Virus record (IMG/VR): IMGVR_UViG_3300032277_000009 | Location: 1 to 46,914 of that record | Length of the DNA: 46,914 nucleotides | Strand: one strand, 5' to 3' | DNA from: a virus | Made by a program: the position numbers and the translations under genes | The notes under the pieces: generated by a model | Database searches by the model: none | What the model saw: the letters and a program-made list of their open reading frames with translations, nothing else | Told to the model about the DNA's origin: nothing | Shown: positions 7,526-27,095 of the stretch, piece by piece | Layout: every line of letters starts with the position of its first letter | Position numbering within the stretch: position 1 is the stretch's first letter

Positions 7526-7552
7526 GCGCGGCGTCGAAGGAACGCACGAGAA

Positions 7553-9057: not shown

Positions 9058-9087
9058 CCCTTCGAAACGAAACCGACTGATCCAACA

Positions 9088-10116: not shown

Positions 10117-10138
10117 GCCTGACGGCTAGGTCTTGACC

Positions 10139-10158
10139 GCCGGGGCTTCGGCTCCGGC
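10139..10158 (+). promoter_or_regulatory. Stable hairpin with a UUCG tetraloop just after the capsid gene (attenuator or mRNA-stabiliser candidate)
   Basis: gccggggc-ttcg-gctccggc forms an 8-bp stem including one G-U pair. No U tract follows. Confidence 0.4.
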
Positions 10159-10186
10159 ACCAACAAACAACCAACCAAGGAACAAC

Positions 10187-11035: not shown

Positions 11036-11532
11036 TCCGCGACGCAGCCTTCGCAATGTCCTCGGAACAGTCGCTGGCCTCGCCAGCGACGTTCCCTGCG
11101 ACGTCATCGGTGGGCCACCTCTCGACCGACTACGCCGACCTGTTCGACTACGGGATGAGCGGTGGCCGCGAACAGTTCATCGAACTCGAAATCACCGAGA
11201 CCGTCGACACGGCCATGACGGTCGCGCTCGCCGTATGGCCCGACGCCGGACCTGCTCTGCGCCCAACCGAAGCGTTGGTCGTCGCGGCAGGCCACCGGTT
11301 CATCTCGCAGAAGCAGTTTCTGCTCGCGGATCTGACGGCAGGCTCTCGGCTCTACCTTCCGTTGTGGACGTCGGGCGTCGACTTCATGGATGAGGACAAC
11401 GGCGGGTTGACGTGGCGGTGGTTGAACTTGTTCTACCTCTGCACGGGCACGACGGCCGGTAAGGTGACCGCTCGACTGGTCGATGCGATCACGCACAAGC
11501 CGCGTCGCTTCGACGCCAACAACTTGACCTAG
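11032..11532 (+). CDS. Hypothetical virion protein (166 aa)
   Basis: ATGA overlap with the upstream gene, and position inside the structural operon. Confidence 0.55.
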   Translation: MIRDAAFAMSSEQSLASPATFPATSSVGHLSTDYADLFDYGMSGGREQFIELEITETVDTAMTVALAVWPDAGPALRPTEALVVAAGHRFISQKQFLLADLTAGSRLYLPLWTSGVDFMDEDNGGLTWRWLNLFYLCTGTTAGKVTARLVDAITHKPRRFDANNLT

Positions 11533-11556: not shown

Positions 11557-14535
11557 ATGGGACGCACGCTGCTTCTGACGCTGCTCGGGGGCGGCGTGCT
11601 TTTCTTTACATCCTGCGACATCAACATGACCGCCATCGCTGTTCCCCTTCCGACCAAAGACGTGTTGATCAACCTTTCGCAGAGCAACGGGACGACCGTT
11701 GGTGACGCGAAGGGGTTCGAGGACGCAAACCCGCAGATCGCTCTGCGGAACCCGGTAGCCGTCGCGCTGTCGCGGCGCTTCAACCAAGGCTCCGCGCGCG
11801 ACGAGATCACGCTGCCCGACCCCGAGTTCGGTGATCACCGGGTGGTCAACTACCGCGGCAAGGGGTCGCCGACGGTGCGCTACCTGACGTTCTTCAACCC
11901 GACGTCGACGTGCTACGAACGCACGGGCGCGGCGGTGTCGATGCCGACGTATCCGGGCGAGTTCGAGGTCAGCGAGATCACGAACGGCACGACGTTCAAG
12001 ACGAAGATGATCTGGCAGGCTGACCCGACAGGGAAGGTCACGATCACGCGCAGGCGCACCGGTGTTGCCTACACCATCACTGCGTCGTCTCCGATCCCGG
12101 GCGTGTCGTTGACAGCCAACAAGTCGTTCGACCCGCCGCTTGAAGTGGGTGAGCGGTTCACGCACACAGTCGCGGCGATGGACGCCGGCAGCACGACGCA
12201 GGTGCGGTTCTACAACCAGTTCGGCGGGCACCACGATCTCGGCGGCACGTTCGAAGCGACGCTCAACGGCGTCGCCGCAGACTACCCGAACGCGTCGGTC
12301 GGCTCTTACACGCTGTCGGTGTGGGAGACTACGTTCGGCACCGGCACGGGCAAGGTGACGTGTCTCGAACACCCGCTCTATCTCGGCCGCCGCATCCGCT
12401 TCTTGCAACGCACGGGCACGCTGCCGGTCGAGCTGGCGGTGGCGACGGATTACTACATTGTGAGGCTCGACGCTGACGGCAAGAGCGCATACATCAGCGC
12501 CACGCCGGATGGCAGCGAAATCACGTTCTCGGCCGCGTCGGGCGACTTCCAGGTGGCGTTCTACCCGGACGGCCGCGACAGCACGATGGCGGGCATGAAC
12601 CTGCATTGCCTCACTGGCGCCAACGCTGGCGAGGTGCGCGCGATGGGCGACGTGACCCCGAACGCCGCCGGCACCGTGTGGACCGTCAACGTGACCGAAG
12701 CGTTCACGAACGCAGTCACGCAAGACGACACGTTCGAGATCCTCCCGCCCGATGTTGGCGGCGCACCCGTGCCGTTCGACAAGTGGGCCTACTTCCTGCC
12801 GGTGTGCCAACTCAACGGCCGCGAGCAAGGTCTGCCGGCGAAGAGCCCGGTCACGATCACAACGGGCACAGGCACGACGTCGTTCCTCGCGACCGACGGC
12901 AACTACCCAGCGATCGGAGCGACGGCGTTCTACAACGGCTGCCCCGTGCGCTTCTGGCGCAAGGTCTACAGCGACGCCGCCGGCTCAGCGTCTGGCGAAG
13001 TGTGGCCGACGGGGCTGACCGAAGGGGTGGAATACTTCGTCGTCAACTTCAACTCGACGACGGGTTCGTTCCAGGTCTCCGCAACCTACGACGGCACGCC
13101 GATCAGTCTGACCGGCACGACTGCGCAGATTCACTGGGTCACGTTCAGTGAGACGTCGCTGCACATCGACAACCCCGCACCGCCAGGGTTCAACTTCAAC
13201 AACCAGCGGTGTGTTCCGTTCACTTACAACCCGTATCGCGGTGCGACCAACGGCTTGACGCCGGATGTTGAACAACCGAAGGTCGCCTACCACTGGGGTT
13301 GGGCGCAACGCATCGCCGAACGCATCGGTCGGGATGTCTACGTCATCGACTTGGCTGTCGGCGGGTCGACGCTCAGCGAGGTTGTCGTTCCACCGACCAA
13401 CGCAAACGGCGGTATCGGCTGGTTCGACCCCGCGTCGATGAACCACTGGGCGCCAGGTGAAGCAGCGCTTCGCGCTAGGTTCTTGCGCGTGCTCGATGCC
13501 GCGGAGTTGGCCGCCACGCGCGAAGGCGTGCAACTGCGCATCCGCGGCGTGTGCTTCCCGCAAGGTGAGTCTGATTCGGTGACCGTCGACCGCGCAGAAC
13601 GCTACATGGGCAACTCGCTCAGGTTCAAAGCGTTCGTCCGAGCCGAGCTGAAGAAGCGCGGGCTGTGGGACGGCGAAGCAGACGAGCTGCCCTTCTTGCA
13701 CCCTCAGATCCGCACGAGCACGACCGGCCAATGGCCGCAGTCGGCGACGGTCAACAAGTCGATCATCAAGCTGGCGAACGCCGACCCGTTCAGTCGCACG
13801 TGGAACACCGACGCTTACACTCTGTTCGACGAGGTGCACTACGCGGGCGTGTCGCTCGACACCATGGCAAGGTCGGCCGCGGCCAACCTGTTCGACTACC
13901 TCGACGGCGACGACGGCAACGTGCTGCGCATCTGCAAGCTCGCGATGCGCATGGCCGGTGAATCGAGCGTGTTCGACTCGGTGTATCCACCAGACGCGGA
14001 CAGCAAGGAAGCCGAGTTGGCTGCGGCGTTCTACCCCGAGGCGCGCGAGCACATGCTCGATCGCCACGCGTGGGACTTCGCAGTGTTCACCGAGTTGCTC
14101 GAAGAGGCATCGGCCAACGAGCGCACGCACGACTGGCGCCACGCTTACGAGCTGCCGCTGAACCTCCGCGGCGTGATCGGGCTCGGCGAAGATGAAATGT
14201 CCGCGTTCGACATGAAGGCGGTGAAGATCAAACACTCGATCGAGTTGCGGTCCGACTCGACGCGCGTGCTCTACGCGAACCAATCGCCCGACCTCTACAT
14301 CCGATACAAGCTCAACAAGGTCGACCCATCCAAGTTCAGCGCCGCGTTCATCAACGCATGCGCGGCCTACATGGCGTCGATGGTTGTGCGCACGACGATG
14401 AAGGGGGAAGAAGGTATCAAGGCCGGCGCCGCTCTTGAGAAGCGCGCCTACGGCATGTTCAAGGACGCGGCGTCGGTCGACGCCCGCCACACGCGAGACA
14501 CTTCCCAATCGCAGCAAATCGGCTGGCGTCGATGA
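11557..14535 (+). CDS. Tail adaptor (T7 gp11-like tubular protein A) domain at the C-terminus, fused to a large N-terminal SGNH/SASA-like esterase region with inserted repeat domains
   Basis: 992 aa. AAGGAAG lies upstream of the ATG. Esterase-like blocks: LINLSQSNG (aa ~38-45), IDLAVGGSTL (~aa 597-606), CFPQGESDS (~aa 667-675), FDEVHYAG (~aa 757-764). The C-terminal ~200 aa (RICKLAMRMAGE...HAWDFAV...FINACAAYMAS...) follow the gp11 adaptor pattern. The next gene is nozzle-like. Confidence 0.65.
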   Translation: MGRTLLLTLLGGGVLFFTSCDINMTAIAVPLPTKDVLINLSQSNGTTVGDAKGFEDANPQIALRNPVAVALSRRFNQGSARDEITLPDPEFGDHRVVNYRGKGSPTVRYLTFFNPTSTCYERTGAAVSMPTYPGEFEVSEITNGTTFKTKMIWQADPTGKVTITRRRTGVAYTITASSPIPGVSLTANKSFDPPLEVGERFTHTVAAMDAGSTTQVRFYNQFGGHHDLGGTFEATLNGVAADYPNASVGSYTLSVWETTFGTGTGKVTCLEHPLYLGRRIRFLQRTGTLPVELAVATDYYIVRLDADGKSAYISATPDGSEITFSAASGDFQVAFYPDGRDSTMAGMNLHCLTGANAGEVRAMGDVTPNAAGTVWTVNVTEAFTNAVTQDDTFEILPPDVGGAPVPFDKWAYFLPVCQLNGREQGLPAKSPVTITTGTGTTSFLATDGNYPAIGATAFYNGCPVRFWRKVYSDAAGSASGEVWPTGLTEGVEYFVVNFNSTTGSFQVSATYDGTPISLTGTTAQIHWVTFSETSLHIDNPAPPGFNFNNQRCVPFTYNPYRGATNGLTPDVEQPKVAYHWGWAQRIAERIGRDVYVIDLAVGGSTLSEVVVPPTNANGGIGWFDPASMNHWAPGEAALRARFLRVLDAAELAATREGVQLRIRGVCFPQGESDSVTVDRAERYMGNSLRFKAFVRAELKKRGLWDGEADELPFLHPQIRTSTTGQWPQSATVNKSIIKLANADPFSRTWNTDAYTLFDEVHYAGVSLDTMARSAAANLFDYLDGDDGNVLRICKLAMRMAGESSVFDSVYPPDADSKEAELAAAFYPEAREHMLDRHAWDFAVFTELLEEASANERTHDWRHAYELPLNLRGVIGLGEDEMSAFDMKAVKIKHSIELRSDSTRVLYANQSPDLYIRYKLNKVDPSKFSAAFINACAAYMASMVVRTTMKGEEGIKAGAALEKRAYGMFKDAASVDARHTRDTSQSQQIGWRR

Positions 14536-17500: not shown

Positions 17501-17801
17501 GGAGCAGGAGTTGCTGCCGGTGACGATGCAGATGGACTCCCTCGGCTACGGGCGGGGCAAGGCGCTCAACCACGCGTGGGTCCGCACGTATGAATCCGCG
17601 GGCCTGTCGATCGGCGCGAAGGGCGAAGACACAGTGTTCAAGGTGCCCGACTTGCACGTGCCTGGCGGCCTCGTCACGCAGGAGTCGCGCGCCATCGTGT
17701 CGAACAAATGGGACCCTGACGCGCAGTTGTTGGTTCGACAGACGCTGCCGCTGCCCGCTACCATCGTGTCAGTAACTCTTGAAGTGAGCGTAGCCGAATG
17801 A
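14532..17801 (+). CDS. Tail nozzle / tubular protein B (T7 gp12-like)
   Basis: 1089 aa with ATGA overlap. N-terminus FAGGEVSPEFFGRGDAVQFQTGLAAARNVVVKPQGSARTRPGGEFV is typical of this family. Carries two LPxGL...GTGxH repeat modules. Confidence 0.75.
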   Translation: MRTRKHQYSFAGGEVSPEFFGRGDAVQFQTGLAAARNVVVKPQGSARTRPGGEFVARSFRQGTAAQLMSFTYDIDQAYAIEIGAQVFRFHAAGATLKWATPVDVGELGGVDTLDIVSHVNGILITAGPHGLTSGDEVRVTVEAVGSLPGGLASFTDYKVTVLDSRRLQFSLSASYPTLITIGPGYGSGFMRIFKTSELPRVYVEAENFAPGDVNTTSEVISIANHLFQDGDEFRFGTSGTLPAPLVAGTSYFAVNVVAGVSFQVSETSGGAAINLTTTGTGTHNVSYRYKQGDLAFVPVNGGLFNAGEVVYCQRDNDSDFLYPNTAGDWYLQPYDGALTVPTLYTAVQVFDLNWDQAGDVISLVHPEHPERELRRLSSLKWVVVDITTGATLTAPVPSVTEAYGETIKSLSYQAKGGVSGEPILMNTDESVPGVQTGTALLVTVSGLGSVPQGSTVIVNEVIAGGPPYKFGIRELGGDVITSTATTPTALTIEFAFTDLIADTNDYKVSAVDGAGIESVSAATGAVTNNLANPGASNTVSWAAIAGAVRYRVYKKSSGTGLYGLVGETDSLSFTDSDIAADLTNTTPVPDTDISNAANYSRATARFEQRRCFAGSDLFPRRMFMSRNGTENDFSSRIPVLDDDRISIEVAAREAHVIRHIVPLNDLVLLTQLGEWRVFAINSDAITPTTVAVRPQSYIGASTVRPLVINNSMLFCAARGGHVREMGFQATRQGFVTGDVSLRAAHLFDGYEIKSSAYQKAPVPICWFVSTSGRLLGFTYVPEERIGAWHRHDTEGGSFESVCVIPEGGEDRIYVTTQRTVEGVVVRNVERLAALNPTAPLDSPSLDDSRRYDGAGAGTVTVSGGAFAGQTVTVTTSATTAFSIFDVGKRLYMGANDTAVEITEFVTQNSVKGVLVSDLPTTDRNTALSPWAFGVKTIGGLSELEGASVSIVRSDSSDGLVTVEQNVTVTNGQVELSGWATIADVGRQYTPEQELLPVTMQMDSLGYGRGKALNHAWVRTYESAGLSIGAKGEDTVFKVPDLHVPGGLVTQESRAIVSNKWDPDAQLLVRQTLPLPATIVSVTLEVSVAE

Positions 17802-18436
17802 CTGACGAAATCATCGAACCGGACATCGATCTGGGTTTGGGCGAGAACGAACTCGTCGACAACGCCGTCGACACTCGTTCAGGGCTCGGCAACACGTTCT
17901 GGAACATCGGCGCCGTGGCTGCGATCGGCGGCAGCGTCATCGCGTCGATCGGCGCCTACGCGAGCACGCAGGCCGAGGAAGAGAACCTCAAGTCTGGCGC
18001 GTCCTCGCAGGAGTCGGCCGCCGTGTTCGACGACTACGGTGCGAACCAAGCCCGTATCGCAGCGCAGGACGTCGTTCGTCAAGGTCGGCGGACCAAGGGG
18101 CGCTACCAGCTCCGAGCCGCTCAGGAGCAATCCTCGGCCCGTGCGTCGGCTGCAGCGCGAGGCGTTGAGCAGGTCGGTTCGGCCGCCGAAGTCCAAGCGT
18201 CACTGAAATACGCGCAGGAAGTCGACGAGCTGACGCTCGATTCCAACACGTTGCGCCAGCGGCAGGCGCTCGAACGCCAAGAGCTGTCCCTACGCAACCG
18301 CGCCCGCATGCGTCGCGTCTCGGCCGAGAACATGCGCCGTTCGGCATCAACTATCAGCCCCGGTCTTGCCGCGGCCACCGCGTCGCTGCAAGGGATCGCA
18401 GGCGTTGCCGGCGGCTTCGCTCAGAGGTTTGCGTAA
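17798..18436 (+). CDS. Internal virion (ejection) protein, small
   Basis: 212 aa with ATGA overlap. Hydrophobic segment FWNIGAVAAIGGSVIASIGAY, then a long Q/R/A-rich helical region. Position after the nozzle gene. Confidence 0.6.
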   Translation: MTDEIIEPDIDLGLGENELVDNAVDTRSGLGNTFWNIGAVAAIGGSVIASIGAYASTQAEEENLKSGASSQESAAVFDDYGANQARIAAQDVVRQGRRTKGRYQLRAAQEQSSARASAAARGVEQVGSAAEVQASLKYAQEVDELTLDSNTLRQRQALERQELSLRNRARMRRVSAENMRRSASTISPGLAAATASLQGIAGVAGGFAQRFA

Positions 18437-20484
18437 TGCCTATCCGTGTCCCAGGAGTCGACGGCCGCCCCGTCTCACAGAACCCCGTGCAAGCCGCACC
18501 CGCGCCGGCACTCAACCAAGGTCTGGCGATCGTGGGTGCGCAGTTGCAGAACGCTGGCAACACCGTGCGCCGCGAGGGTGCGCAGGCGATGCGTGTCGGG
18601 CAGCAGTTCATCGACAGCGCGAACGATGCGCGCAGCTCCCAGCAGGCAACGCTGCACGGCGACGCGCTCGACAAGCTCGTGCGCGACTACCAACAGAGTC
18701 TCGCCGCCGATGCACACGACGGCTACGAGCCGCTGAACAAAGAGATCAAGAAGCTGCGCGATCGCTTCTCCGGCAAGCTCGACAACTCGCAGCAAGCGGT
18801 GCTCTACAAGACCAAGGTCGACGCGCAGATCCGTCGGGCGCGCGGCACGGTCGACCGCCACTTCGCGCAGCAAACGCGAGCGTGGGACATCGAGCAGACT
18901 GAGGTCACGCTCAACCGCTACGCGCAGGACTACCAAGAAGCCGCGCTGTTGGGTGACGAGTTCGACGACGAGCGCATGGCGCGCATGACCGTGGCGCGCG
19001 GCGTCATGGAGAAGCTGTTCGACCGACTCGCCGAGATGTCAGGCATGGACCCGAAGACCGCGGCCGAGCAGAAGAAGCAACGTCTCGCCCGCCTGCACAG
19101 CCGCACGCTGGCGGTGTTGTCCGATCAGTCGGCAGAGCAAGCGTCTGACTACCTCGACACGTTCGGCGACGAGATGGACGTTGCGACGCGCACCAAGGCG
19201 AAGGCGCAAGTCGAAGCAGCGACGCTGCAAGACAAGGCGCTCGCACGCATGCGCAAGATGATGGAAAGCGCCGGCCCGAAGGCGACACCCGCGCAGCGCT
19301 TCCAATCCGTGGTCGAGCAGGCCGCGAAGATCACCGACGCCGGCGAGTTCCAAGCCGTGATGTCGATGGCGGGCGCTGAGTATGCCCGGGCGCAGCGCGT
19401 GACGAACGCGCAGCAGAACGAGCTGGTCGACGAGGTCGAGAAGATCGTCTACGCCGAAGGTGGCGAGTTCACGACGTTCTACGACCTGCCGGCGACGATG
19501 CAGCAGCGGCTGCGCGATGAAGGCTTGGTCGACGAGGTGCAAGCCGTCATCGGCCAGCGTGACCGCGTGTCGCAAGAGATGGTCGTGCAGCAGGCGATTC
19601 GCAACCCGGGCGCGTTCCGTGGCCGCGACTACCAAGAGTTCAAGCGCACGCACAAGCCGCGCTTGTCGAAGGGCGACTACGCGACCGTTGAGTCGATCTT
19701 CTTCAGCGTCAACCCCGAGCAGGCGCCGCCGGGAACACCGGTCGCTTCGATCCTCGACGCGAGCGATCTGTTCAACCAAGAGATGGATTTGTCGGGGAAG
19801 ACGAAAGAGGCGCTGGAAGGAAACCCCGATCTGCAGCGCCGCGCACAGAATCTACGCTTTGCGTATCAACGTTTGATCGAATCCGGCGGCATCACCAAAG
19901 AGACGCCCATCGACATGAAGCGGAAGCAGATCCAAGCGCTGTTTCGGCAGGATGCGTCCGTCCCCGGCATCCTCGGGTTCGGCGGTGAGAAGGTGTCGAT
20001 CCACGAGATGGCCGAAGGTGCTGAGATCACCGTTGCTACTCGTGACGGCCGAGTGCGCCAATCGCGCGTCGGTGCCGTGCCGCCGCTGGTCGCGTCCGAA
20101 CTCCAGGTCAGCATGCAACGGTTGTTCAAAAACAAACGGCAACCTACGGAGCACGAGATCCAACAGGCGTGGTTCGAGCTGGACCAACCTAAGTCGGCCA
20201 AGCTGGCGCGCGAACGGTGGGCCAATCAGAGTTTCGTTATGAAGGGCATCGTGCAGTCGTCGCTGGACCGGGAGAAACCCACCGACGAGTTGATGGTCGA
20301 CATGGACCCGTCGGTCCGTTCACGGGTCGACCAGCTCTTCGCGTCCGCAGGGTCGACGATGCAGACCTTCGGCGGGCCTCGATACCTGCTAGGGTTCCTG
20401 CCACCATCGCTCACCACGAAGCAGAAGGACGACGCGCGTCGATACCTCGATCTGCTCGTCAGCAGACAAGGCCGACGTAGATGA
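18436..20484 (+). CDS. Internal virion (ejection) protein, medium
   Basis: 682 aa with TAATG overlap. Mostly helical composition. Position as for T7 gp15-class proteins. Confidence 0.55.
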   Translation: MPIRVPGVDGRPVSQNPVQAAPAPALNQGLAIVGAQLQNAGNTVRREGAQAMRVGQQFIDSANDARSSQQATLHGDALDKLVRDYQQSLAADAHDGYEPLNKEIKKLRDRFSGKLDNSQQAVLYKTKVDAQIRRARGTVDRHFAQQTRAWDIEQTEVTLNRYAQDYQEAALLGDEFDDERMARMTVARGVMEKLFDRLAEMSGMDPKTAAEQKKQRLARLHSRTLAVLSDQSAEQASDYLDTFGDEMDVATRTKAKAQVEAATLQDKALARMRKMMESAGPKATPAQRFQSVVEQAAKITDAGEFQAVMSMAGAEYARAQRVTNAQQNELVDEVEKIVYAEGGEFTTFYDLPATMQQRLRDEGLVDEVQAVIGQRDRVSQEMVVQQAIRNPGAFRGRDYQEFKRTHKPRLSKGDYATVESIFFSVNPEQAPPGTPVASILDASDLFNQEMDLSGKTKEALEGNPDLQRRAQNLRFAYQRLIESGGITKETPIDMKRKQIQALFRQDASVPGILGFGGEKVSIHEMAEGAEITVATRDGRVRQSRVGAVPPLVASELQVSMQRLFKNKRQPTEHEIQQAWFELDQPKSAKLARERWANQSFVMKGIVQSSLDREKPTDELMVDMDPSVRSRVDQLFASAGSTMQTFGGPRYLLGFLPPSLTTKQKDDARRYLDLLVSRQGRRR

Positions 20485-23400
20485 CGAACTCTTTCCTACC
20501 GCCTCTCGACCCACAGAACCCGCAACCCGCATCGCCGGCGCAGGCGCCGCAAGAGACGGTCCTCTCTCAGCTTGTCCAGGGCTGGGAAGAGCAAGAGACG
20601 TCCGCGTTCATGCGTTCGTTCCAAGGCGTGATCGACACGGACCCCGACACGGCCGCCGAGATCAAGCAGATCAGCGCCGCAACGGGTCAGCCGCCGAACG
20701 CCATCGCGAGCGACATCAACTGGGCGCGGCGCTTGATGGCGCAGCGCGACATGCGCTTGTGGCTCGCGGTGAAGGCCAACCCGGTGATCCGGGAGCAGTT
20801 CGCCAACCCTGAGTTCGCGCAGATCGCGTGGGACGACTTGAAGAGCGTCAGCGCGTGGCAGGACATTTCCGGCAACTGGCGTGCAGGCCAACTCGTAGTC
20901 GAACGCGGCAAGATCGGCACGCGCATGATGTCCGGCATCGCGACGGGCGACGACCACAAGCGGCTCGAAGACATCGACCGCATGCTGCAGGAAGAGCTAC
21001 CCAGCGGTGATAGCTGGATCGGCGGCCCGGCGCGGATGTTCGGTCTGATGTCGCAGACGTTGCCGAAGGCGATCGCGCTCGGCTCCGGCACGGCGGCAAC
21101 CGCCGCGGCGCTAGGCAACCTCGGCCCGCAAGCCGCAGTGCCTGAAGAAGTGATCATCGTGCCGGCGGCGTTCGTCTTCGGCATGTCGTCCGGGATGGCG
21201 ATCCAAGCGTTCCAGATCGAAGGCGGCAACGCATACATCGAATACAAGCGCGCAGGGTTCGACGAAGGTCGCGCCCGCGTCGCGGCGCGCAGCGTCGGCA
21301 CAGTGAATGCCGTGCTCGAAGTCGCGGGCCTGAGCATCTTGGCTGCACCAGCGAAGAAGCTCGTGCAGGATCAGGTCAAGCGCAGGCTGGGTGAACGTCT
21401 CGCACGCATGACGCCGTTCGAAGCGTCGACCCGCGCGCTCAAGGGTATCGGGGCCGGTGTTGCTGGCGAGACCGGCCCCGAGGTGCTGCAAGAACTCAGC
21501 ACGATGATCGGCGAGGAAGTCGCCCGCGTCGGCACCGAGACGATGGTGAGCCGTTTGCAAGGTGGGTTCCGTGGCGAGTTCGACGCACCCGGCGGGGGTC
21601 GCATCGAGATCGACGGCCGCGGTCAGATCAGCGTCACGCCTGACGTGTTCAAGCGCGTTCTGGGCCTCGACACCGGCGGCGCCGATGTCGACGCGGTTGT
21701 GTTGGAAGGTGAGACGCGGCGCAAGTTCATAGAGCAATACGACAAGGCTCTGCCGCTGATCTCTGCGATCACCGAAGGTGAGGTCGGCGACCGACTCATC
21801 GACACCGCCATACAAACCGTCAAGGGTGTGTGGTTGCCGGGCGCGATCGGACCTTCGATCCAGCTCATTGGCGACTCGCACCGCATCACGTCGGCGCAAC
21901 GCATGGACAAGGTCTTCGAAGCCGCGACGCAAAACGTCGCCGAAGCCAAGGCCGCTGCACGCGACGCCGACGTGTTTTCCCAATTCATCGCCGGCACGCT
22001 CGACGACTCTGTGGCCGACACGGTCTACGTCTCGAAGGACCGCGTGCGCGAGAAGATGGAGAAGGCCGGCGTCACCGAAGAGCAACTCGAACGCGACGCC
22101 CCTGAGATCCATCGCCAGTTGCGCGAGCCGAACGAGCTGAACGACGACATCGAGGTCCCGATGGGCGACTGGCTCGGCCTCAAGATGAACCAGTCTGATA
22201 TCGGCCTAGCGCTGCGCGAAGACCTACGCATCGCCGGCAAAGATTCGATGTCGCTCGCCGAGGCAGAGCAGGCCGCGAAGACGATCGACGAAGACGTGAA
22301 GGCGCTGCGCGCCAAGCTCGACGAGGACGAAGCCGCGGCGTCGGTGTTCCGCGCGGAAGCCGAACAGATCGAGAAGCGCATTCGCACGGAGATCACCGCT
22401 GCCGGTGTGAACATCTCCGCGGAGCAAGCACGCATCAGTGCGCAGATGCACCGGCGCATTCTCGAAACGCTGTCGCTACGCGCCGGTGTGTCGCCCGCGC
22501 AGTTCGAAGAGCAGTTCGGGCAGATGCAGATCGTGCGCGGTCAAGGTGTCGACGCTGCGACGTTCGCGCAGACCGACGCGTTCAAGGCGTGGTTCGGCGA
22601 CTCGAAGGTTACGGAGATGGTTTCCGGGTCGTCCTCCCGTGACGCCGTGTTCGCCCCTCAAGTGGTCTACCACGCAACGACCGCCAGTTTCGAAGAGTTC
22701 GAGGCTGGTCGCGAGACGGTCAACTCAACGTTCTTCGGCGACGTCAAGACGGAGCGCCACGCCGTCTTCTTCACGCCGACACCAGAGCGTGCCGCCGAGT
22801 ATGTGACCTTCGATGGCGAAACGGATCCAGGTGCGCGCACGATCCCCGCATATCTGTCCGTGCAGAATCCGCTCGACTTCACCGAGCAGGTATCCGACGA
22901 CGTGCTCGGTCAGTTCGAAGCTGAAGGTATCAACCCGCGATGGCTGACGAAGTTCGAGTGGGGGCACCTTGACGGAGATGACGGGAGAGAGCTGGTCGCT
23001 GTGGCCCGGAAGCTCGGCTATGACGGGATCGTCTTCCTCGAAGAAGGCCCCGACTCAGGCAAGGACTTTGAGACTTGGGCGGTGTTCGACCCTGCGCAAA
23101 TCAAGTCGGTGCTCAACCGCGAGCCGACCAGCGACCCGAACATCCTGAAGCAAGACGGCGACGGAGAGCAAACGCCGCGCGGCACGTTCAACCCGCGCGA
23201 CTTCGTCACGAAGTTGTTCGACAAGGCCGACGCGTCGACCTTCTTCCACGAAGCGGCCCACTACTACCTTGAAGCGCTGCTGAACCTCGCGCGCAACGGC
23301 AAGGCGCCGACCGACGTGCTGGCCGACCTCGACGCGCTGGCGAAGTGGGGCGAGATGGAAGGCTGGGAAGACCTCGCCACCGCATCGATCGAAGACCGCC

Positions 23401-26400
23401 GCAAGCTGCACGAGAAGTTCGCCTACCGCTGGGAACGCTACCTCCACGAAGGCAAGCCGGCGTCGGCGGACCGCACGTTGCTTGGCATGTTCCGCCAGGT
23501 GCGCGCGTGGCTGACGCAGGTCTACAAGGACATCACGCGCACGCCCGAAGCGGGCTTTGCTGCAGAGTTCCCCGGCGAACAGTTGCCCGAACTCAGCGAC
23601 GAAGTGCGCGCCGTCATGGACCGGCTCGTCGAGTCGCAGGAAGCAATCGACTACGCGCACAAGGTGCGCAGCGTCGAAGGTCTGTTCGAGCTCGGCGAAG
23701 ACAGCGCGGTGTTGCAGGTCATGCCGTCAGACGAGCGCGACCGGCTGAAGAAGATTCTGTTCGACGCAGACTTCGAAGCAGACGAGAAGCTCGGCGCGGT
23801 GATGATGCGGCAGCTCCGCTACATGAAGAACTTCCGCGGCAAGTTCCTCAAGGAAGTGCAGTCGCAGACGCGCGCCGCGCGCAAGCGCATTCGCGAAGAG
23901 GTCTACGAAGAGCAGCGCAACGAACCGGTGCACCGCGCTCAGCGCTTCTTCAACACCGGTGAGTTCCTCAACGCGCTCGGTGAAGTCGAGCCGATCGGCG
24001 ACATGCCGAAGCGCATCCACGAAGCCGACGGCGCGGGCTTGCCGGACAAGTGGACGTCGCCACGCGGCGCGAGTGCCGACGTGTTCGCGACGGCGTTCGG
24101 ATACCAGTCCGGCCAAGACCTCGTTGACGACCTGCTAGGCGCGTTGACACTCGACGAAGTGGTCGACCAGATCACCGACGAACGACTCGCCGTCGAGCAC
24201 GACGACTTGCTCAACACCGAGATCGTCGAAGAGCGTCTGATCGAAGCGATGAGCGGGCCGGCGTTCCAAAAGCTGATCGCCGAGCAGCTCCGCTTCTACG
24301 ACAAGGGGTTGCCGAACGGGCGGGTCCAACGGGCCGCAGCTCGCGCGGTTGCCCGCCGCGTGATCGGGGGCCGTGTGGTCGGTGATCTTCGTCCGATGCA
24401 CTACTCGCTGGCAGCTAGCAGGGCGCAGCGGGCGGCGAGCAAGGCGCGGCGCGACGGGGACATCCCGGCATATCGCGCAGCCCTTCGATCCGCGCTCTTC
24501 CAAAACGCCATGGCCGAGGCCGCGAGCGAGGCACGCGACGAGATCCGCAAGGGTGAACGCAACGTCAACAAGCGCTACCTCAAGACCGAGAAGAAGCTCG
24601 CCGAAGCGGGCCGCATCCCGGTCTACGTCACGGCGGGCCGTCTGATCCTCAGCCGCTACGGTCTCGTGACGCCGCCACCGGAGTCGATCGACAGCCCAAC
24701 CTACGACCCGTTCGCACCGCTCGAAGATGACGACCCGACGCGCGTTGAGTTGCAGCAGATGGTCGACGCAGAGACGACGGACGCGAAGAACTACCGCGAA
24801 CTGACCGTCGACGAACTGCGCGATATGTTCGAACTGTCGAACAGTCTTTGGTTCCGCAGCAAGCGCGAGAAGCAGGTGTTGATCGATGGCGAGCGCGCTG
24901 AGCTTGAAGACGTGCTTGCGCAGATGGTCGCGAAGCTCGGCGAGCACACGGTCAAGGAACGCAAGGTGGCCGGCGCGCTGACCAAGGGTGAGAAGCGCGG
25001 CCGGTGGGTGCGCAAGCAGCTCGCGCAGTTCAAGCGCATGGAGTTCGCGTTGCAGGCGCTCGACCGGGGAACACCGGGTGGCATCTTCACGAAAGCGATC
25101 TGGCGTCGCGCCAAGGACGCGGCGAATCAAATGCGACTTGTCGAGGCGCGCCAGCTCAAGAAGCTGCAGGCGCTCGTCGATCAGCTCGATCTCAGCGGCG
25201 GCACGATCACAGCCAAGTCGCTCGAAGTGAACGTCGACGGTGTGCCGACGCGCGACTTCGTGTTCGGCCGCGGCGAGGTCAGCGGCAAGGCCGAGATCAT
25301 CATGGCGCTGTTGCACAGCGGCAACGAGTCGAACATGTTCAAGCTCGTCGCCGGCCACAAGTGGGGCCGCTTCGACAAGGCGACCGGCAAGGTCGACGTC
25401 TCGCGCTGGCTCGACTTCATCAACCAGAAGGTCGACGACGGCACGATCACGAAGAAGGACATGGACGTCGTTCAGGCGATCTGGGATCTGAACGAAGAGA
25501 TGAAGCCGGCCGCGCAGCGCGCGCACTACGAGGTCGCCGGCTACCGCTTCCGCGAGATCCAGGCATCACCGCTGGCGCTGGTGTTCCCCGGTGAAGGGCT
25601 CGTCGTCTACAAGGGCGGCTACGTGCCGGCCGCAACCGACCGCGACCAAGTCGTCGACGCTCAGCTCAACGAGCTTGACGACATGCTGAACTTCCAGAAG
25701 AAGCTGCCGATGGTGCCGCGCGGCTTCATGAAGAATCGCGCCTCGCTCTACGCGCGCGAGCTGGACCTCAACCCGATGCGCCTGGCTGAGCACGTGCACT
25801 CGGTGCAGTTGTTCTCGCACATCGCGCCCGCGATGAAGGACATCCGCCGCATCACCGAAAGCCAAGCGTTCAAGACCGCCATCGACAAGGTCGACCCACA
25901 GTTCCGCGCCGAGGTGCTCGTGCCGTGGCTCGAAGCCCTCGCGTCGCAACGCACGACCAAGGCCGGGAAAGACACGTGGGGTTGGCTCAACCGGCTGCGC
26001 GCTCGCGCGGGGCAAGCGGTGATGTTCTTCAACGTGAAGAACTCGCTGCAGAACTACACGGGTATTCCGGTCGCACTCACTGTTGTCGACGGCCGCAACC
26101 TGCGGATGGGTCTCGGCGAAGTGTTGCGCGACCGCGAGGGTGCGTTGCAGCGCGTGGCGGACCAAAGCGACTACATGCGGGACCGCCTCTCGAACACCGC
26201 TGATATCTACGAGGTGCGCGACCGCTTCCAAGGTCTCGTCATCGATCGCGGCAACTTCGGCAACGTGCAAGCGTGGTTCCAGAAGAACGCCTACTGGCTG
26301 CAGCGACTGACTCAAGAACCAATCGACGCCGCCGTGTGGATCGCTTCCTACAACAAGGCGATCGAAGACCAAGGCCCGATCGATGGGTCAAAGGCGCACA

Positions 26401-27095
26401 CCGAAGCGGTGCAGCGCGCAGACGCCGCTGTGCGGCAGACGCAGACGTCGAACAACCCGGAAGACCTCAGCAGCGCAGAGCGCGGCTCAGCGTGGGCCAA
26501 GCTCTTCCTGCAGTTCCGCGGCTGGTTCATCTCCTACGGCAACCTGATTCGCACGCAGATGGGTGTGCGTGCGCAGCGCGACGACCGCATGGCCTCGCTC
26601 GCAGCGCTCTACATGATCGGCATCTTCGCGCCGCTCGTTGCGGCCGAAGCGATCGACGCGCTCGTCGACGGCGACGAGATCGACAAGGACGAAGACGGTG
26701 CTGTCTGGGACGACGTGGCGTGGCGCGCGATGCAGTCGCACCTGCAAGCGATCACCGGTGCAGTCCCGATCTGGGGCGACATCGGGCAGGTTGCGTTCAA
26801 CACGTTGTTCGAGCCGCAGAGCTGGTCGGCCCGCATGCCTGAGCCGGCCGCGATCGGTGCAATGCGCCAAGGCTTGGTCTACTTGCGCAAGGGCGATCTC
26901 GAAAGCGGACGTGGCCTGCGCAGCGTGTTCTCGATGGTCGGCATCATGATCGGCATCCCGATCGAACGCATCATCGGCCCAGCGTTCAGCGGCTACGAGC
27001 TGATGACGGACCAAGCCGACTTCGAAGGTCAGTTCGGGCCAGGTGTCGAAGTGCCGCGGGCGTTGATCACCGGTCGGACCCAACGGCCCCGCTAG
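20481..27095 (+). CDS. Giant internal / ejected polyvalent-type protein with an ART-like module and an HExxH zincin-like module
   Basis: 2204 aa with ATGA overlap. aa ~725-876: VVYHATTASFEEFE...AVFFTPTPERAAEY...GYDGIVFLEE...WAVFDPAQIKSV. aa 923-927: HEAAH within TFFHEAAHYYLEAL, followed by EKFAYRWERYLHEGKP...FRQVRAWLTQVY. Gly/Ala-rich hydrophobic segments occur near aa 190-300 and aa ~2040-2060. Confidence 0.7.
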   Translation: MTNSFLPPLDPQNPQPASPAQAPQETVLSQLVQGWEEQETSAFMRSFQGVIDTDPDTAAEIKQISAATGQPPNAIASDINWARRLMAQRDMRLWLAVKANPVIREQFANPEFAQIAWDDLKSVSAWQDISGNWRAGQLVVERGKIGTRMMSGIATGDDHKRLEDIDRMLQEELPSGDSWIGGPARMFGLMSQTLPKAIALGSGTAATAAALGNLGPQAAVPEEVIIVPAAFVFGMSSGMAIQAFQIEGGNAYIEYKRAGFDEGRARVAARSVGTVNAVLEVAGLSILAAPAKKLVQDQVKRRLGERLARMTPFEASTRALKGIGAGVAGETGPEVLQELSTMIGEEVARVGTETMVSRLQGGFRGEFDAPGGGRIEIDGRGQISVTPDVFKRVLGLDTGGADVDAVVLEGETRRKFIEQYDKALPLISAITEGEVGDRLIDTAIQTVKGVWLPGAIGPSIQLIGDSHRITSAQRMDKVFEAATQNVAEAKAAARDADVFSQFIAGTLDDSVADTVYVSKDRVREKMEKAGVTEEQLERDAPEIHRQLREPNELNDDIEVPMGDWLGLKMNQSDIGLALREDLRIAGKDSMSLAEAEQAAKTIDEDVKALRAKLDEDEAAASVFRAEAEQIEKRIRTEITAAGVNISAEQARISAQMHRRILETLSLRAGVSPAQFEEQFGQMQIVRGQGVDAATFAQTDAFKAWFGDSKVTEMVSGSSSRDAVFAPQVVYHATTASFEEFEAGRETVNSTFFGDVKTERHAVFFTPTPERAAEYVTFDGETDPGARTIPAYLSVQNPLDFTEQVSDDVLGQFEAEGINPRWLTKFEWGHLDGDDGRELVAVARKLGYDGIVFLEEGPDSGKDFETWAVFDPAQIKSVLNREPTSDPNILKQDGDGEQTPRGTFNPRDFVTKLFDKADASTFFHEAAHYYLEALLNLARNGKAPTDVLADLDALAKWGEMEGWEDLATASIEDRRKLHEKFAYRWERYLHEGKPASADRTLLGMFRQVRAWLTQVYKDITRTPEAGFAAEFPGEQLPELSDEVRAVMDRLVESQEAIDYAHKVRSVEGLFELGEDSAVLQVMPSDERDRLKKILFDADFEADEKLGAVMMRQLRYMKNFRGKFLKEVQSQTRAARKRIREEVYEEQRNEPVHRAQRFFNTGEFLNALGEVEPIGDMPKRIHEADGAGLPDKWTSPRGASADVFATAFGYQSGQDLVDDLLGALTLDEVVDQITDERLAVEHDDLLNTEIVEERLIEAMSGPAFQKLIAEQLRFYDKGLPNGRVQRAAARAVARRVIGGRVVGDLRPMHYSLAASRAQRAASKARRDGDIPAYRAALRSALFQNAMAEAASEARDEIRKGERNVNKRYLKTEKKLAEAGRIPVYVTAGRLILSRYGLVTPPPESIDSPTYDPFAPLEDDDPTRVELQQMVDAETTDAKNYRELTVDELRDMFELSNSLWFRSKREKQVLIDGERAELEDVLAQMVAKLGEHTVKERKVAGALTKGEKRGRWVRKQLAQFKRMEFALQALDRGTPGGIFTKAIWRRAKDAANQMRLVEARQLKKLQALVDQLDLSGGTITAKSLEVNVDGVPTRDFVFGRGEVSGKAEIIMALLHSGNESNMFKLVAGHKWGRFDKATGKVDVSRWLDFINQKVDDGTITKKDMDVVQAIWDLNEEMKPAAQRAHYEVAGYRFREIQASPLALVFPGEGLVVYKGGYVPAATDRDQVVDAQLNELDDMLNFQKKLPMVPRGFMKNRASLYARELDLNPMRLAEHVHSVQLFSHIAPAMKDIRRITESQAFKTAIDKVDPQFRAEVLVPWLEALASQRTTKAGKDTWGWLNRLRARAGQAVMFFNVKNSLQNYTGIPVALTVVDGRNLRMGLGEVLRDREGALQRVADQSDYMRDRLSNTADIYEVRDRFQGLVIDRGNFGNVQAWFQKNAYWLQRLTQEPIDAAVWIASYNKAIEDQGPIDGSKAHTEAVQRADAAVRQTQTSNNPEDLSSAERGSAWAKLFLQFRGWFISYGNLIRTQMGVRAQRDDRMASLAALYMIGIFAPLVAAEAIDALVDGDEIDKDEDGAVWDDVAWRAMQSHLQAITGAVPIWGDIGQVAFNTLFEPQSWSARMPEPAAIGAMRQGLVYLRKGDLESGRGLRSVFSMVGIMIGIPIERIIGPAFSGYELMTDQADFEGQFGPGVEVPRALITGRTQRPR

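What the first reader, a model, noticed from the sequence alone, without database searches (positions are those of the whole stretch)
20481..27095. Giant 2204-aa virion-module ORF looks like an injected polyvalent effector: an ART-like module, an HExxH zincin-like module, and over 1,200 aa with no assignable domain
This is the last gene of the tail/internal-protein operon. In T7-type podoviruses that position is held by the ejected core protein.

- **ART-like module.** aa ~725-876 (nt ~22650-23110) read VVYHATTASFEEFE...HAVFFTPTPERAAEY...GYDGIVFLEE...WAVFDPAQIKSV. This matches my recollection of the YH(G/A)(S/T)...QIKS ADP-ribosyltransferase-like module of the 'polyvalent proteins' described by Iyer, Aravind and colleagues.
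- **Zincin-like module.** About 50 aa later, TFFHEAAHYYLE (H923-E-A-A-H927, nt 23247-23261) plus EKFAYRWERYLHEGKP...FRQVRAWLTQVY resembles their zincin metallopeptidase module.
- **Implication.** Packaged host-modifying or counter-defence enzymes delivered with the DNA would be biologically important. This phage has no RNA polymerase or other obvious takeover genes.
- **Unassigned parts.** The N-terminal ~700 aa (with Gly/Ala-rich hydrophobic segments) and the C-terminal ~1,250 aa carry no motif I can name. They may hide additional effector domains.
Basis: partly seen in the sequence, partly recalled or inferred. Interest (0 to 1): 0.72.

Follow-up and report, generated by a model that had tools for sequence, protein, structure and literature searches.

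The report
Phage ejection protein carrying ADP-ribosyltransferase cargo
The giant gene encodes the largest internal ("ejection") protein of a BPP-1-like short-tailed phage, with a swappable slot that here holds an intact-looking ADP-ribosyltransferase; this is a known type of phage "polyvalent" protein, not a new kind of system.

Summary
The ORF at 20481-27095 is intact (2204 aa), and every quoted motif is at the stated position.

- **ART call, confirmed.** Pfam ART-PolyVal matches aa 725-883 (E = 2e-15, above threshold). H731, aromatic F763 and D848 are in place.
- **HExxH (923-927), real but not shown to be a zincin.** It is conserved with E978 and E985, and the module has more than 11,000 cluster representatives. 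No Pfam, PDB-sequence or Foldseek match to any zincin is significant.
- **Whole protein.** It is colinear with Bordetella phage BPP-1 Bbp10, a published T7-gp16-type internal virion protein (IVP-D). It follows a T7-gp14-family gene.
- **Architecture.** A constant N-module (aa 1-699) and a constant C-module (aa 895-2204) flank one variable slot (aa 700-894). Relatives 65-75% identical on the flanks carry other inserts there. Others have none, or a PBECR1 RNase domain (Bbp10) or an acetyltransferase domain.

The "hidden extra effectors" idea is therefore not supported. Packaging, injection and enzyme activity are inferred, not shown. Verdict: a new member of a known kind; moderate interest.

The parts
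20481..27095 (+). Whole gene: 2204-aa internal virion (ejection) protein of the IVP-D / BPP-1 Bbp10 type, with a polyvalent architecture
   Evidence: ORF intact. Colinear with BPP-1 Bbp10: phmmer E = 5.9e-65 overall, C-module stretch 4e-60. 31 homologs of 1,771-3,695 aa.
20481..22577 (+). Constant N-module (aa 1-699)
   Evidence: 68% identical to P0002 and 51% to P0003/P0004. An N-module HMM hits 125 of 149 representatives.
20622..20855 (+). LPD22 domain (aa 48-125)
   Evidence: Pfam PF18834, 32 bits against a cutoff of 28.6. The same domain in Bbp10 scores E = 3.5e-25.
21033..21365 (+). Gly/Ala-rich hydrophobic stretch (aa ~185-295); possible membrane-active segments
   Evidence: Kyte-Doolittle 19-residue windows reach 1.4-1.8 at aa 217-244 and 271-295. 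Gly is 15% of aa 201-400. The membrane role is inferred.
22578..23162 (+). Variable cargo slot (aa 700-894), here an ART cassette
   Evidence: DNA similarity to relative L007 stops at ORF nt 2098 and resumes at nt 2682. Protein identity to P0002 is 68% / 23% / 75% across N-module / slot / C-module. Relatives have other inserts or none.
22653..23129 (+). ART-PolyVal domain (aa 725-883). Active-site candidates: H731 (nt 22671-22673), F763 (22767-22769), D848 (23022-23024).
   Evidence: PF18760, E = 2e-15. In 67 homologous domains the columns read H 63/67, aromatic F/Y/W 61/67 and D 65/67. In the AF2 model H731 lies in a strand and D848 just before one. Foldseek gives weak hits to tankyrase PARP domains and the NatT toxin.
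23130..23153 (+). Linker S884-DPNILKQ-891, the tail of the ART cassette
   Evidence: A 'FDP.DPNIL.Q' motif follows ART domains in relatives, including where the ART is not next to the HExxH module (P0015, P0024). Its function is unknown.
23163..27092 (+). Constant C-module (aa 895-2204)
   Evidence: PHROG 9880, aa 885-2109. 64-75% identical to P0002-P0004. tblastn hits in 50 phage records. The distance from module start to the C-terminus has an IQR of 1238-1297 aa in 147 representatives.
23172..23696 (+). HExxH module (aa ~898-1072). HEAAH at nt 23247-23261; E978 at 23412-23414; E985 at 23433-23435.
   Evidence: Invariant H923, E924, H927, E978, E985, G991, W1010, Y1015 and R1043 in 26 sequences. 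AF2 model pLDDT 87: a beta-hairpin followed by helices. 11,665 representatives at E <= 1e-3. No significant zincin match.
26583..26990 (+). Two C-terminal hydrophobic segments (aa 2035-2064 and 2146-2170)
   Evidence: Hydropathy maxima of 1.99 and 1.56. Their role is inferred.
17798..18436 (+). Upstream gene: T7 gp14-family internal virion protein (212 aa)
   Evidence: Pfam PF24072, 32.1 bits against a cutoff of 27. PHROG 418, internal virion protein. 30% identical to BPP-1 Bbp12, E = 8e-9.
18436..20484 (+). Upstream gene: 682-aa protein in the gp15 (IVP-C) position
   Evidence: Assigned by position only. Weak PHROG 10475 hit, E = 2.5e-4; no Pfam hit. The same gene order is seen in relatives L007 and L008.

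Best explanation
The gene encodes the largest internal virion (ejection) protein of a BPP-1/epsilon15-type podophage. It is the counterpart of T7 gp16 (IVP-D).

**Layout.** It follows the three-part plan known from the phage N4 virion RNA polymerase:
- a constant N-terminal module (LPD22 plus hydrophobic segments);
- one exchangeable cargo slot;
- a constant ~1,300-aa C-terminal module that begins with an invariant HExxH domain.

**Proposed mechanism (inferred).**
1. The protein is packaged in the capsid core together with the gp14-like and 682-aa proteins.
2. At infection it is ejected through the tail ahead of or with the DNA.
3. It helps build the envelope-spanning conduit.
4. It thereby carries its cargo into the cell.

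**Cargo.** Here it is an ART-PolyVal ADP-ribosyltransferase with an intact H-(F/Y/W)-D site. It would use host NAD+ to modify an unknown host target early in infection.

**HExxH domain.** It is probably a metal-dependent hydrolase. It may cut the polypeptide or a host or envelope substrate.

**Shown here:** domain identities, conservation, the slot boundaries, synteny and homology to Bbp10.

**Inferred:** packaging, ejection, cytoplasmic delivery, ART activity and target, and any proteolysis.
For: **Position and homology.**
- The gene order is tail genes, then a T7_gp14-family gene, then a 682-aa gene, then this ORF. Relatives L007 and L008 and BPP-1 (bbp12, bbp11, bbp10) have the same order.
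- The protein is colinear with Bbp10, C-module E = 4e-60. Bbp10 is listed as an IVP-D homolog. [quoted passage not shown]
- The N4 vRNAP has an N-terminal injection region, a central enzyme and a C-terminal encapsidation region containing HExxH (PMC5512222).

**Cargo slot.**
- Flanks are 65-75% identical to P0002, against 23% in aa 700-894. The DNA breakpoints are sharp.
- Relatives carry PBECR1 (Bbp10), GNAT, DUF7178 or ~1,000-aa inserts, or no insert at all (P0005, P0007).
- The C-terminal remainder is constant at about 1,260 aa, while the module start ranges from 212 to 3236.

**ART domain.**
- Pfam E = 2e-15.
- H731, F763 and D848 sit in columns that are conserved across 67 domains.
- 60 of 149 representatives carry an ART, always upstream of the HExxH module.

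**Structural link.** The top Foldseek PDB hit of the ART+HExxH model is cyanophage A4 gp27 (9k3a_B; E = 4.4e-4, prob 0.99). That protein was shown by cryo-EM and mass spectrometry to sit in the capsid pre-ejectosome (PMC12002296).

**Other.** The 2204 aa contain no cysteine.
Against: - There are no virion proteomics or any experiment for this phage.
- I found no published evidence that Bbp10 itself is in BPP-1 virions. The 2013 BPP-1 cryo-EM paper, the only BPP-1 paper checked, identified only the two capsid bands.
- I did not reproduce similarity to epsilon15 gp17 or to the N4 C-terminal region beyond the HExxH stretch. T7 gp16 itself was not compared. The IVP-D link therefore rests on Bbp10 plus the literature.
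- The A4 gp27 match has a low TM-score (0.22 / 0.10) and no sequence support.
- The HExxH domain has no significant match to any zincin.
- Relatives without cargo keep the HExxH domain, so releasing cargo cannot be its only role.
- The N4 vRNAP is reported to be packaged unprocessed (PMC5512222).
- The ART target is unknown. The fold hits (NatT, PARP) are weak and would also fit an NAD+-degrading activity.
Confidence: 0.75

Rival explanations
1. The ART-fold cargo is not a protein ADP-ribosyltransferase. It would act as an NAD+ glycohydrolase/phosphorylase, or modify DNA or RNA. The aim would be to deplete or redirect host NAD+, or to mark nucleic acids.
For: The best ART-fold structure hits are the NAD+-consuming toxin NatT (8qnl_C / 8qnq_C, prob 0.66-0.75) alongside tankyrase PARP domains. 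The strand-2 position is Phe, not the Tyr named in the family definition. ARTs are described as acting on proteins, nucleic acids and nucleotides (PMC5512222).
Against: The ART-PolyVal / HYD2 clade is grouped by its describers with protein-modifying ARTs. F, Y and W interchange freely at that column (33 / 20 / 8 of 67), so Phe is not a loss-of-function signal. The Foldseek E-values are 0.2-1.5, too weak to choose between activities.
Confidence: 0.2
2. The HExxH module is not a self-processing zincin peptidase. It would be either a structural metal-binding helical domain of the ejection scaffold, or a hydrolase that acts on the cell envelope or on a host protein during penetration.
For: Foldseek of a confident model (pLDDT 87) finds no metallopeptidase in the PDB; the best E-value is 0.8. 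No Pfam zincin model reaches significance in 26 members. The model has only a two-stranded hairpin before the HExxH helix. Relatives without cargo (P0005, P0007) keep the motif. The module always sits at a fixed distance from the C-terminus. No lytic domain was found in this phage's three ejection-position proteins, so an envelope-directed hydrolase would fill a gap.
Against: H923, E924, H927, E978 and E985 are invariant, as expected for a catalytic zinc site of the gluzincin type. Sub-threshold hits all fall on zincins with HExxH in register: Spartan SprT (E = 0.44), Pfam SprT-like (0.039), M78 (0.054) and Tox-MPTase4 (0.17). hhalign to the N4-like vRNAP HExxH region gives P = 0.0064 with the hairpin and motif aligned. 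Iyer et al. assign that N4 region to the zincins.
Confidence: 0.35
3. The protein is a tail or lysis component ('tail protein', 'lysin', 'crystallin motif protein', as relatives are annotated) that stays outside the cell. On this reading the ART domain would be a decayed or repurposed passenger.
For: Database annotations of homologs include 'lysis protein', 'lysin', 'tail protein' and 'crystallin beta/gamma motif-containing protein'.
Against: Those names are automatic or motif-based. The gene sits after a gp14-family internal virion protein gene. No lytic domain is detected. The ART active-site columns are conserved, which argues against decay. The structural analog A4 gp27, although annotated 'tail protein', lies inside the capsid.
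Confidence: 0.05

Closest known systems
Bordetella phage BPP-1 Bbp10 (NP_958679), listed as an IVP-D (T7 gp16-type) homolog of the epsilon15 subgroup
   Same: The two are colinear over the whole length: LPD22 at the N-terminus, a conserved block at aa ~430-690, a slot, an HExxH module, then a ~1,200-aa C-module. The gene order is the same, after the internal virion protein genes.
   Different: Identity is only about 25%. Bbp10 carries a PBECR1 RNase-like domain in the slot (aa 643-729) where this protein has an ART. BPP-1's preceding gene has an SLT lytic domain, which this phage's 682-aa protein lacks.
Polyvalent proteins of phages and conjugative elements (Iyer, Burroughs, Anand, de Souza, Aravind 2017; PMC5512222)
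   Same: A very large late-gene protein combining an LPD domain, an ART-PolyVal domain and an HExxH domain. Orthologs have variable architecture, and ART is the commonest modifying enzyme. This is exactly the described pattern.
   Different: The HExxH domain does not match any Pfam zincin model, so its placement among that paper's 12 MPTase clades is unverified here. This family has one defined slot between two constant modules, not free domain shuffling.
Coliphage N4 virion RNA polymerase gp50
   Same: The plan is tripartite: an N-terminal injection region, a central enzyme, and a C-terminal ~1,400-aa encapsidation region that starts with an HExxH domain. That C-terminal region is reported as an IVP-D homolog. 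The hairpin and HExxH align in register.
   Different: The cargo is a 1,100-aa RNA polymerase, not a 200-aa ART. Similarity is not significant (hhalign P = 0.0064, probability 5.9%), and none was detected beyond the HExxH stretch.
Cyanophage A4 gp27 (PDB 9k3a chain B), a pre-ejectosome component
   Same: It is the largest ejection protein, encoded in the same gene slot. Experiments show it inside the capsid. It is the top structural match of the ART+HExxH model.
   Different: No sequence or profile similarity. It has no HExxH. The pre-ejectosome has four proteins and a disulfide to gp26, whereas this protein has no cysteine.
Phage T4 Alt
   Same: A capsid-packaged ADP-ribosyltransferase injected with the DNA. 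It is the functional model for head-delivered ARTs.
   Different: It belongs to a different ART clade (R-S-E active site), is a separate small protein not fused to an ejection scaffold, and comes from a myovirus.

Membership tests
ART-PolyVal (Pfam PF18760; Tox-ART-HYD2-related clade) | Profile match above the curated threshold | tested here: met
   58.2 bits against a cutoff of 31.2, E = 2e-15, aa 725-883, covering profile positions 5-139 of 140. On the excised segment: 63.2 bits.
ART-PolyVal (Pfam PF18760; Tox-ART-HYD2-related clade) | Active site of His (strand 1), Tyr (strand 2) and Asp (strand 5), as defined in PMC5512222 | tested here: met
   H731 and D848 are present. The Tyr position is F763, but that column reads F 33 / Y 20 / W 8 across 67 homologous domains, so an aromatic residue is the real constraint. 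The model places H731 in a strand and D848 directly before one.
ART-PolyVal (Pfam PF18760; Tox-ART-HYD2-related clade) | ART fold | tested here: inconclusive
   The AF2 model has pLDDT 78-97 over the domain. Foldseek hits to tankyrase PARP domains and the NatT toxin have prob 0.4-0.75 and E = 0.2-1.5. The query had two domains, and no search was run on the ART domain alone.
ART-PolyVal (Pfam PF18760; Tox-ART-HYD2-related clade) | NAD+-dependent ADP-ribosyl transfer | not testable with these tools
   Needs a biochemical assay.
Polyvalent proteins (Iyer et al. 2017) | Large polypeptide combining unrelated enzymatic and LPD domains | tested here: met
   LPD22, ART-PolyVal and an HExxH domain in 2204 aa.
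Polyvalent proteins (Iyer et al. 2017) | Encoded among phage late/structural genes; architecture varies between orthologs | tested here: met
   Structural-operon context. Slot contents differ among relatives.
Polyvalent proteins (Iyer et al. 2017) | Packaged in the virion and delivered into the host | not testable with these tools
   Inferred from position and homology only.
Zincin-like metallopeptidase (MPTase) of polyvalent proteins | HExxH on a helix plus a Glu on a following helix, both conserved | tested here: met
   H923, E924, H927, E978 and E985 are invariant in 26 sequences. HExxH is present in 149 of 153 modules. In the model, HExxH lies on helix 918-938 and both Glu on helix 970-990. 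Their 3D proximity could not be measured, because no coordinates are returned.
Zincin-like metallopeptidase (MPTase) of polyvalent proteins | Core fold: three-stranded sheet with an N-terminal helix before the HExxH helix | tested here: not met
   The model shows only a two-stranded hairpin (aa 901-904 and 909-912) and no preceding helix within the modelled segment. A third strand from outside the segment cannot be excluded.
Zincin-like metallopeptidase (MPTase) of polyvalent proteins | Significant profile or structure match to a recognised zincin | tested here: not met
   Pfam best hits: SprT-like 0.039, M78 0.054, Tox-MPTase4 0.17, each in one member of 26. PDB profile search: Spartan E = 0.44. 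Foldseek against PDB: no peptidase, best E = 0.8. hhalign to N4-like HExxH regions: P = 0.0064, probability 5.9%.
IVP-D / T7 gp16-type ejection protein | Gene position: largest gene, downstream of the gp14- and gp15-position genes, at the end of the structural block | tested here: met
   Relatives and BPP-1 share the order.
IVP-D / T7 gp16-type ejection protein | Homology to an accepted family member | tested here: met
   Bbp10: phmmer E = 5.9e-65. Bbp10 is listed as IVP-D in PMC4819975, Table 2.
IVP-D / T7 gp16-type ejection protein | Direct similarity to T7 gp16 or epsilon15 gp17 | tested here: not met
   The C-module HMM against epsilon15 gp17 gives E = 0.084, not significant. T7 gp16 was not tested. 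The literature needed HMM-HMM matching on joined sets.
IVP-D / T7 gp16-type ejection protein | Present in the capsid core and ejected at infection | not testable with these tools
   Needs virion mass spectrometry or cryo-EM.

The most novel reading that the evidence does not exclude
The invariant HExxH/E/E domain is a metalloenzyme fold not yet represented in the PDB or in the Pfam and NCBIfam copies searched here. It heads the C-module in more than 11,000 protein clusters. It would be an obligatory working part of the ejection machine, for example cutting the polypeptide at the slot boundary after ejection or cleaving an envelope component. The adjacent slot would be a recombination hot spot through which near-identical phages trade injected effectors. 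Here the cargo would have been captured from free-standing ~200-aa phage ART genes, its closest relatives at 43-49% identity. That would make the family a natural, engineerable protein-injection chassis.
Probability: 0.2. Interest if true: 0.6.

Novelty: new member of a known kind. Interest (0 to 1): 0.38.

Why it matters
- **Where to look.** This phage lacks its own RNA polymerase (no RNA polymerase was seen among the ORFs scanned). Its early host manipulation may therefore sit in one exchangeable 195-aa cassette inside a structural protein, not in a separate early gene.
- **A testable case.** Close relatives carry the same scaffold with different or no cargo. That gives a clean natural comparison for asking what a head-delivered ART does, and whether the slot tolerates foreign proteins.
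- **Wider point.** A very abundant HExxH domain in podophage ejection proteins still lacks a curated model and a solved structure.
- **Limits.** None of this changes current concepts. Polyvalent proteins and cargo-bearing IVP-D homologs were described in 2016-2017.

Tried and rejected
1. **Near-identical phage.** Megablast of 25 kb against 50,697 phage records found nothing.
2. **PDB sequence search.** The whole protein gave no hit at E <= 1.
3. **Pfam and NCBIfam.** Six Pfam segments at E <= 10 gave nothing for aa 880-2204. NCBIfam gave nothing.
4. **Cyanophage A4 ejection proteins.** BLAST, phmmer and a C-module HMM found nothing. The ART-looking motif in A4 gp27 (aa ~1423-1600) has no HMM or Pfam support. 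It is kept only as a lead.
5. **epsilon15 gp13-gp17.** C-module, N-module and HExxH HMMs gave no significant hit.
6. **N4 gp50.** HMM search found nothing. Profile-profile comparison of the whole C-module aligned only 26 columns at the HExxH.
7. **Foldseek with the HExxH-only model.** PDB returned no peptidase. The viral library returned only members of the same family.
8. **Top PDB profile hits.** These are designed helical repeat proteins and were rejected as composition artefacts.
9. **Terminator or promoter after the gene.** None was found by the consensus scan.
10. **Recent horizontal origin of the cassette.** GC3 is 77% against 82-85% in the flanks, too small a difference to argue for it.
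11. **Cargo of P0002.** It has a 'LYHVTT...GVYAEY' motif that might be another ART-like domain, but no Pfam hit even at E <= 5.

Full report
**1.

The ORF at 20481..27095 (+) is uninterrupted and encodes 2204 aa. Its start codon overlaps the stop of the preceding 682-aa ORF. The identical protein exists in public metagenome data on a 46,928-bp contig, so the window is essentially the whole contig.

Exact numbering is Y730-H731, F763-F764, D848, Q873-I874-K875-S876 and H923-E924-A-A-H927 (nt 23247-23261).

**2. Domain content.**

- Pfam gives two hits above their curated thresholds: ART-PolyVal (PF18760, aa 725-883, 58.2 bits against 31.2, E = 2e-15) and LPD22 (PF18834, aa 48-125, 32 against 28.6). 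The N-terminus is not entirely anonymous.
- PHROGs places aa 885-2109 in phrog_9880, listed as unknown function (E = 9e-241).
- Nothing else is found in Pfam, even at E <= 10 on six overlapping pieces. NCBIfam gives nothing, and the PDB sequence search gives nothing.

**3. Genomic context.**

- Upstream on the same strand lie large terminase, portal, protease, major capsid protein and two large tail proteins.
- Next come a 212-aa protein of the T7_gp14 internal-virion-protein family (PF24072, above threshold) and a 682-aa protein.
- The giant ORF follows. After it the replication genes (family A DNA polymerase, exonuclease, SNF2 helicase, primase/helicase) are mostly on the other strand.
- No ORF large enough to be a single-subunit RNA polymerase is left unassigned, apart from the 682-aa upstream ORF, which has no confident match and is shorter than the T7 enzyme (about 880 aa, from my own knowledge).
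- The order gp14-like, ~680 aa, giant ORF recurs in two related metagenomic phages (L007, L008). It also recurs in Bordetella phage BPP-1 as bbp12, bbp11, bbp10.

**4. Identity of the whole protein.**

- tblastn finds the C-terminal ~1,200 aa in 50 phage records, including BPP-1, Pseudomonas AF, Xanthomonas CP2, Caulobacter, Vibrio, Limnohabitans and cyanophages, at 23-32% identity.
- BPP-1 Bbp10 (2052 aa) is colinear over three blocks: LPD22, aa ~466-679, and aa 895-2105. phmmer gives E = 5.9e-65.
- Hardies et al. list Bbp10 as an internal virion protein D (T7 gp16) homolog of the epsilon15 subgroup. [quoted passage not shown]
- I could not reproduce a direct link to epsilon15 gp17, or to N4 gp50 beyond the HExxH stretch, with HMM or profile-profile searches. 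T7 gp16 itself was not compared.
- The IVP-D assignment therefore rests on Bbp10, on synteny and on that paper.

**5. Three-part architecture with one exchangeable slot.**

Pairwise comparison with 30 homologs shows two constant modules and a variable middle.

| Relative | aa 1-690 | aa 700-895 | aa 900-2204 | Source |
|---|---|---|---|---|
| P0002 | 68% | 23% | 75% | |

- At DNA level, similarity to the P0002 locus stops at ORF nt 2098 and resumes at nt 2682. In window coordinates that is 22578 and 23162, which brackets the ART cassette exactly.
- Slot contents in relatives:
  - P0002 has an unrelated 265-aa insert with no Pfam hit.
  - P0003 has a short insert with a sub-threshold GNAT signature.
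  - P0004 has about 1,000 aa.
  - P0005 and P0007 have no insert; their N-module abuts the C-module.
  - Bbp10 has a PBECR1 RNase-like domain.
  - Others have GNAT, DUF7178, LPD3, LPD38, GGDEF or several ARTs.
- Among the 149 best cluster representatives carrying the HExxH module:
  - The distance from the module to the C-terminus is nearly fixed (interquartile range 1238-1297 aa).
  - The module's start ranges from residue 212 to 3236.
  - 125 carry the N-module.
  - 60 carry at least one ART-PolyVal-like domain, always upstream of the module.
- The ~1,950 'unassigned' residues are therefore scaffold. They are not a reservoir of further effectors, and the protein has a single cargo.

**6. The ART cargo.**

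- Its closest relatives are free-standing ~200-aa ART-PolyVal proteins at 43-49% identity. The ART domains of the homologous giant proteins are more distant, at 28-40%.
- One of those free-standing proteins lies in an 87-kb phage-like contig.
- Across 67 near-full-length homologous domains:
  - The column of H731 is His in 63.
  - The column of D848 is Asp in 65.
  - The column of F763 is F, Y or W in 61 (F 33, Y 20, W 8).
- This matches the H-Y-D configuration that defines the clade (PMC5512222). Phe is the commonest state at the aromatic position.
- The AlphaFold model of aa 696-1112 (mean pLDDT 80; 78-97 over the ART) puts H731 in the first core strand and D848 immediately before a strand.
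- Foldseek gives only weak ART-fold hits: NatT toxin and tankyrase catalytic domains, prob 0.4-0.75 and E = 0.2-1.5. These are consistent with the fold but not decisive. They do not distinguish a transferase from an NAD+-degrading enzyme.

**7. The HExxH module.**

*Evidence for a real, conserved metal-site motif:*
- A 26-sequence alignment (A2) has invariant H923, E924, H927, E978, E985, G991, W1010, Y1015 and R1043.
- Chance alone gives an HExxH in only 2.1% of shuffles of this protein.
- A profile of the module finds 11,665 cluster representatives at E <= 1e-3, and 5,443 at E <= 1e-30, among 1.84 billion proteins.
- HExxH is present in 149 of 153 of the best modules.
- The stand-alone model is confident (pLDDT 87, pTM 0.76). 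It shows a beta-hairpin, a long helix bearing HExxH, and later a helix bearing both invariant Glu.

*Evidence that it is not yet placed among the zincins:*
- Foldseek against the PDB returns no metallopeptidase; the best E-value is 0.8.
- The viral structure library returns only members of the same family.
- Pfam scans of all 26 members give only sub-threshold, single-member hits: SprT-like 0.039, M78 0.054, Tox-MPTase4 0.17.
- The PDB profile search gives Spartan's SprT domain at E = 0.44, although with HExxH in register.
- hhalign against an alignment of N4-like vRNAP HExxH regions gives P = 0.0064 and probability 5.9%, again in register. Iyer et al. assigned those N4 regions to the zincins.

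*Conclusion.* The motif and its conservation fit a gluzincin-like metal site. Membership in a recognised zincin family was tested and not established.

*Function.* Cargo-free relatives retain the motif, and the N4 vRNAP is reported to be packaged unprocessed. A role limited to releasing cargo is therefore unlikely to be the whole story.

**8. Structural link to a proven pre-ejectosome protein.**

- The best PDB match of the ART+HExxH model is 9k3a chain B (E = 4.4e-4, prob 0.99, 397 aligned columns, TM 0.22 / 0.10).
- That chain is cyanophage A4 gp27, the 1717-aa protein in the same gene slot.
- Cryo-EM and virion mass spectrometry show it forms the outer layer of the capsid-internal pre-ejectosome (PMC12002296).
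- There is no sequence-level support. I treat this as corroboration of the class of protein, not as homology.

**9. Mechanism proposed.**

*Shown:* the domain inventory, the slot, the synteny and the homology to Bbp10.

*Established for the model systems:*
- T7 gp14, gp15 and gp16 leave the capsid and form a channel across the envelope (as summarised in PMC12002296).
- N4 delivers its virion RNA polymerase by the same three-part design.
- T4 Alt is a head-packaged ART that modifies host RNA polymerase.

*Inferred for this protein:*
- It is co-packaged in the capsid core.
- It is ejected through the tail.
- The hydrophobic segments (aa ~217-295, 2035-2064, 2146-2170) engage the membrane.
- The ART reaches the cytoplasm and modifies an unknown host target using NAD+.
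- The complete lack of cysteine would suit a protein that must unfold and pass through the periplasm. That is speculation.

**10. Novelty and score.**

- The architecture LPD22, cargo, HExxH, C-module with ART-PolyVal as cargo is common in metagenomes.
- It fits the published concepts of polyvalent proteins (2017) and cargo-bearing IVP-D homologs (2016).
- This is a new member of a known kind.
- What is mildly new: the sharply mapped single slot between near-identical scaffolds; the closer kinship of the ART cassette to free-standing phage ARTs; and a very abundant HExxH domain that lacks any curated model or structural relative.
- Interest: 0.38.

Noticed in passing
L002 (Anabaena phage A-4L, KF356198) 6117-11270, minus strand; gp27 aa ~1423-1600: A4 gp27 is a solved pre-ejectosome protein (PDB 9k3a_B). 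It contains 'SLYHGT...GSGTYFSKSSQAASDNA...VGVDALTDGD', which looks like the ART-PolyVal motif pattern. It is also the top Foldseek hit of my ART+HExxH model. The A4 paper does not mention ADP-ribosylation. No Pfam or HMM support was found.
   Followed up: partly
window 23172-23696 (aa 898-1072) and homologs P0056-P0204: The HExxH/E/E module has 11,665 representatives at 50%-identity clustering. It still matches no Pfam-A or NCBIfam model and no PDB fold. It is a very abundant phage domain without a curated family.
   Followed up: yes
homologs P0004, P0009, P0014, P0027 (slot regions): Several long inserts share an unmodelled conserved motif, 'VLFVEE(I/V)QSDWGQxGxKKGF', followed by 'GYDxVxF'. 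None of the three scanned (P0004, P0014, P0027) has a Pfam hit over the motif region. This may be a recurrent cargo domain of unknown function.
   Followed up: partly
window 20481-27092: The 2204-aa protein contains no cysteine at all.
   Followed up: no
window 23130-23153 (S884-DPNILKQ-891) and relatives: ART cassettes in this family end with a conserved tail, 'N.G.FDP.DPNIL.Q'. It travels with the ART even when the ART is not next to the HExxH module (P0015, P0024). The free-standing ~200-aa ARTs lack it. It may be a linker or a processing site.
   Followed up: partly
L003 6001-6600 (metagenome contig, 87,053 bp): The nearest relatives of the ART cargo are stand-alone 198-240-aa ART-PolyVal proteins. 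One sits among densely packed small ORFs and a LAGLIDADG endonuclease gene, which looks like a larger phage genome.
   Followed up: partly
window 11557-14535 (+): The 992-aa tail protein carries a SASA carbohydrate-esterase domain (Pfam, E = 2.6e-6). This suggests a receptor-deacetylating tail spike.
   Followed up: no
homolog P0002, aa ~725-1010 (locus L007): The closest relative's insert begins 'EFLYHVTTPDRADSIL...GVYAEYSAGRVFL'. That is reminiscent of an ART-type YH.T / aromatic pattern, but it has no Pfam hit even at E <= 5. It may be a divergent NAD+-utilising domain.
   Followed up: partly
window 18436-20484 (+): The 682-aa protein in the gp15 position has no detectable lytic domain, unlike BPP-1 Bbp11 (SLT) and A4 gp28 (transglycosylase plus M23). 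No peptidoglycan hydrolase was identified in this phage's ejection-protein set.
   Followed up: partly
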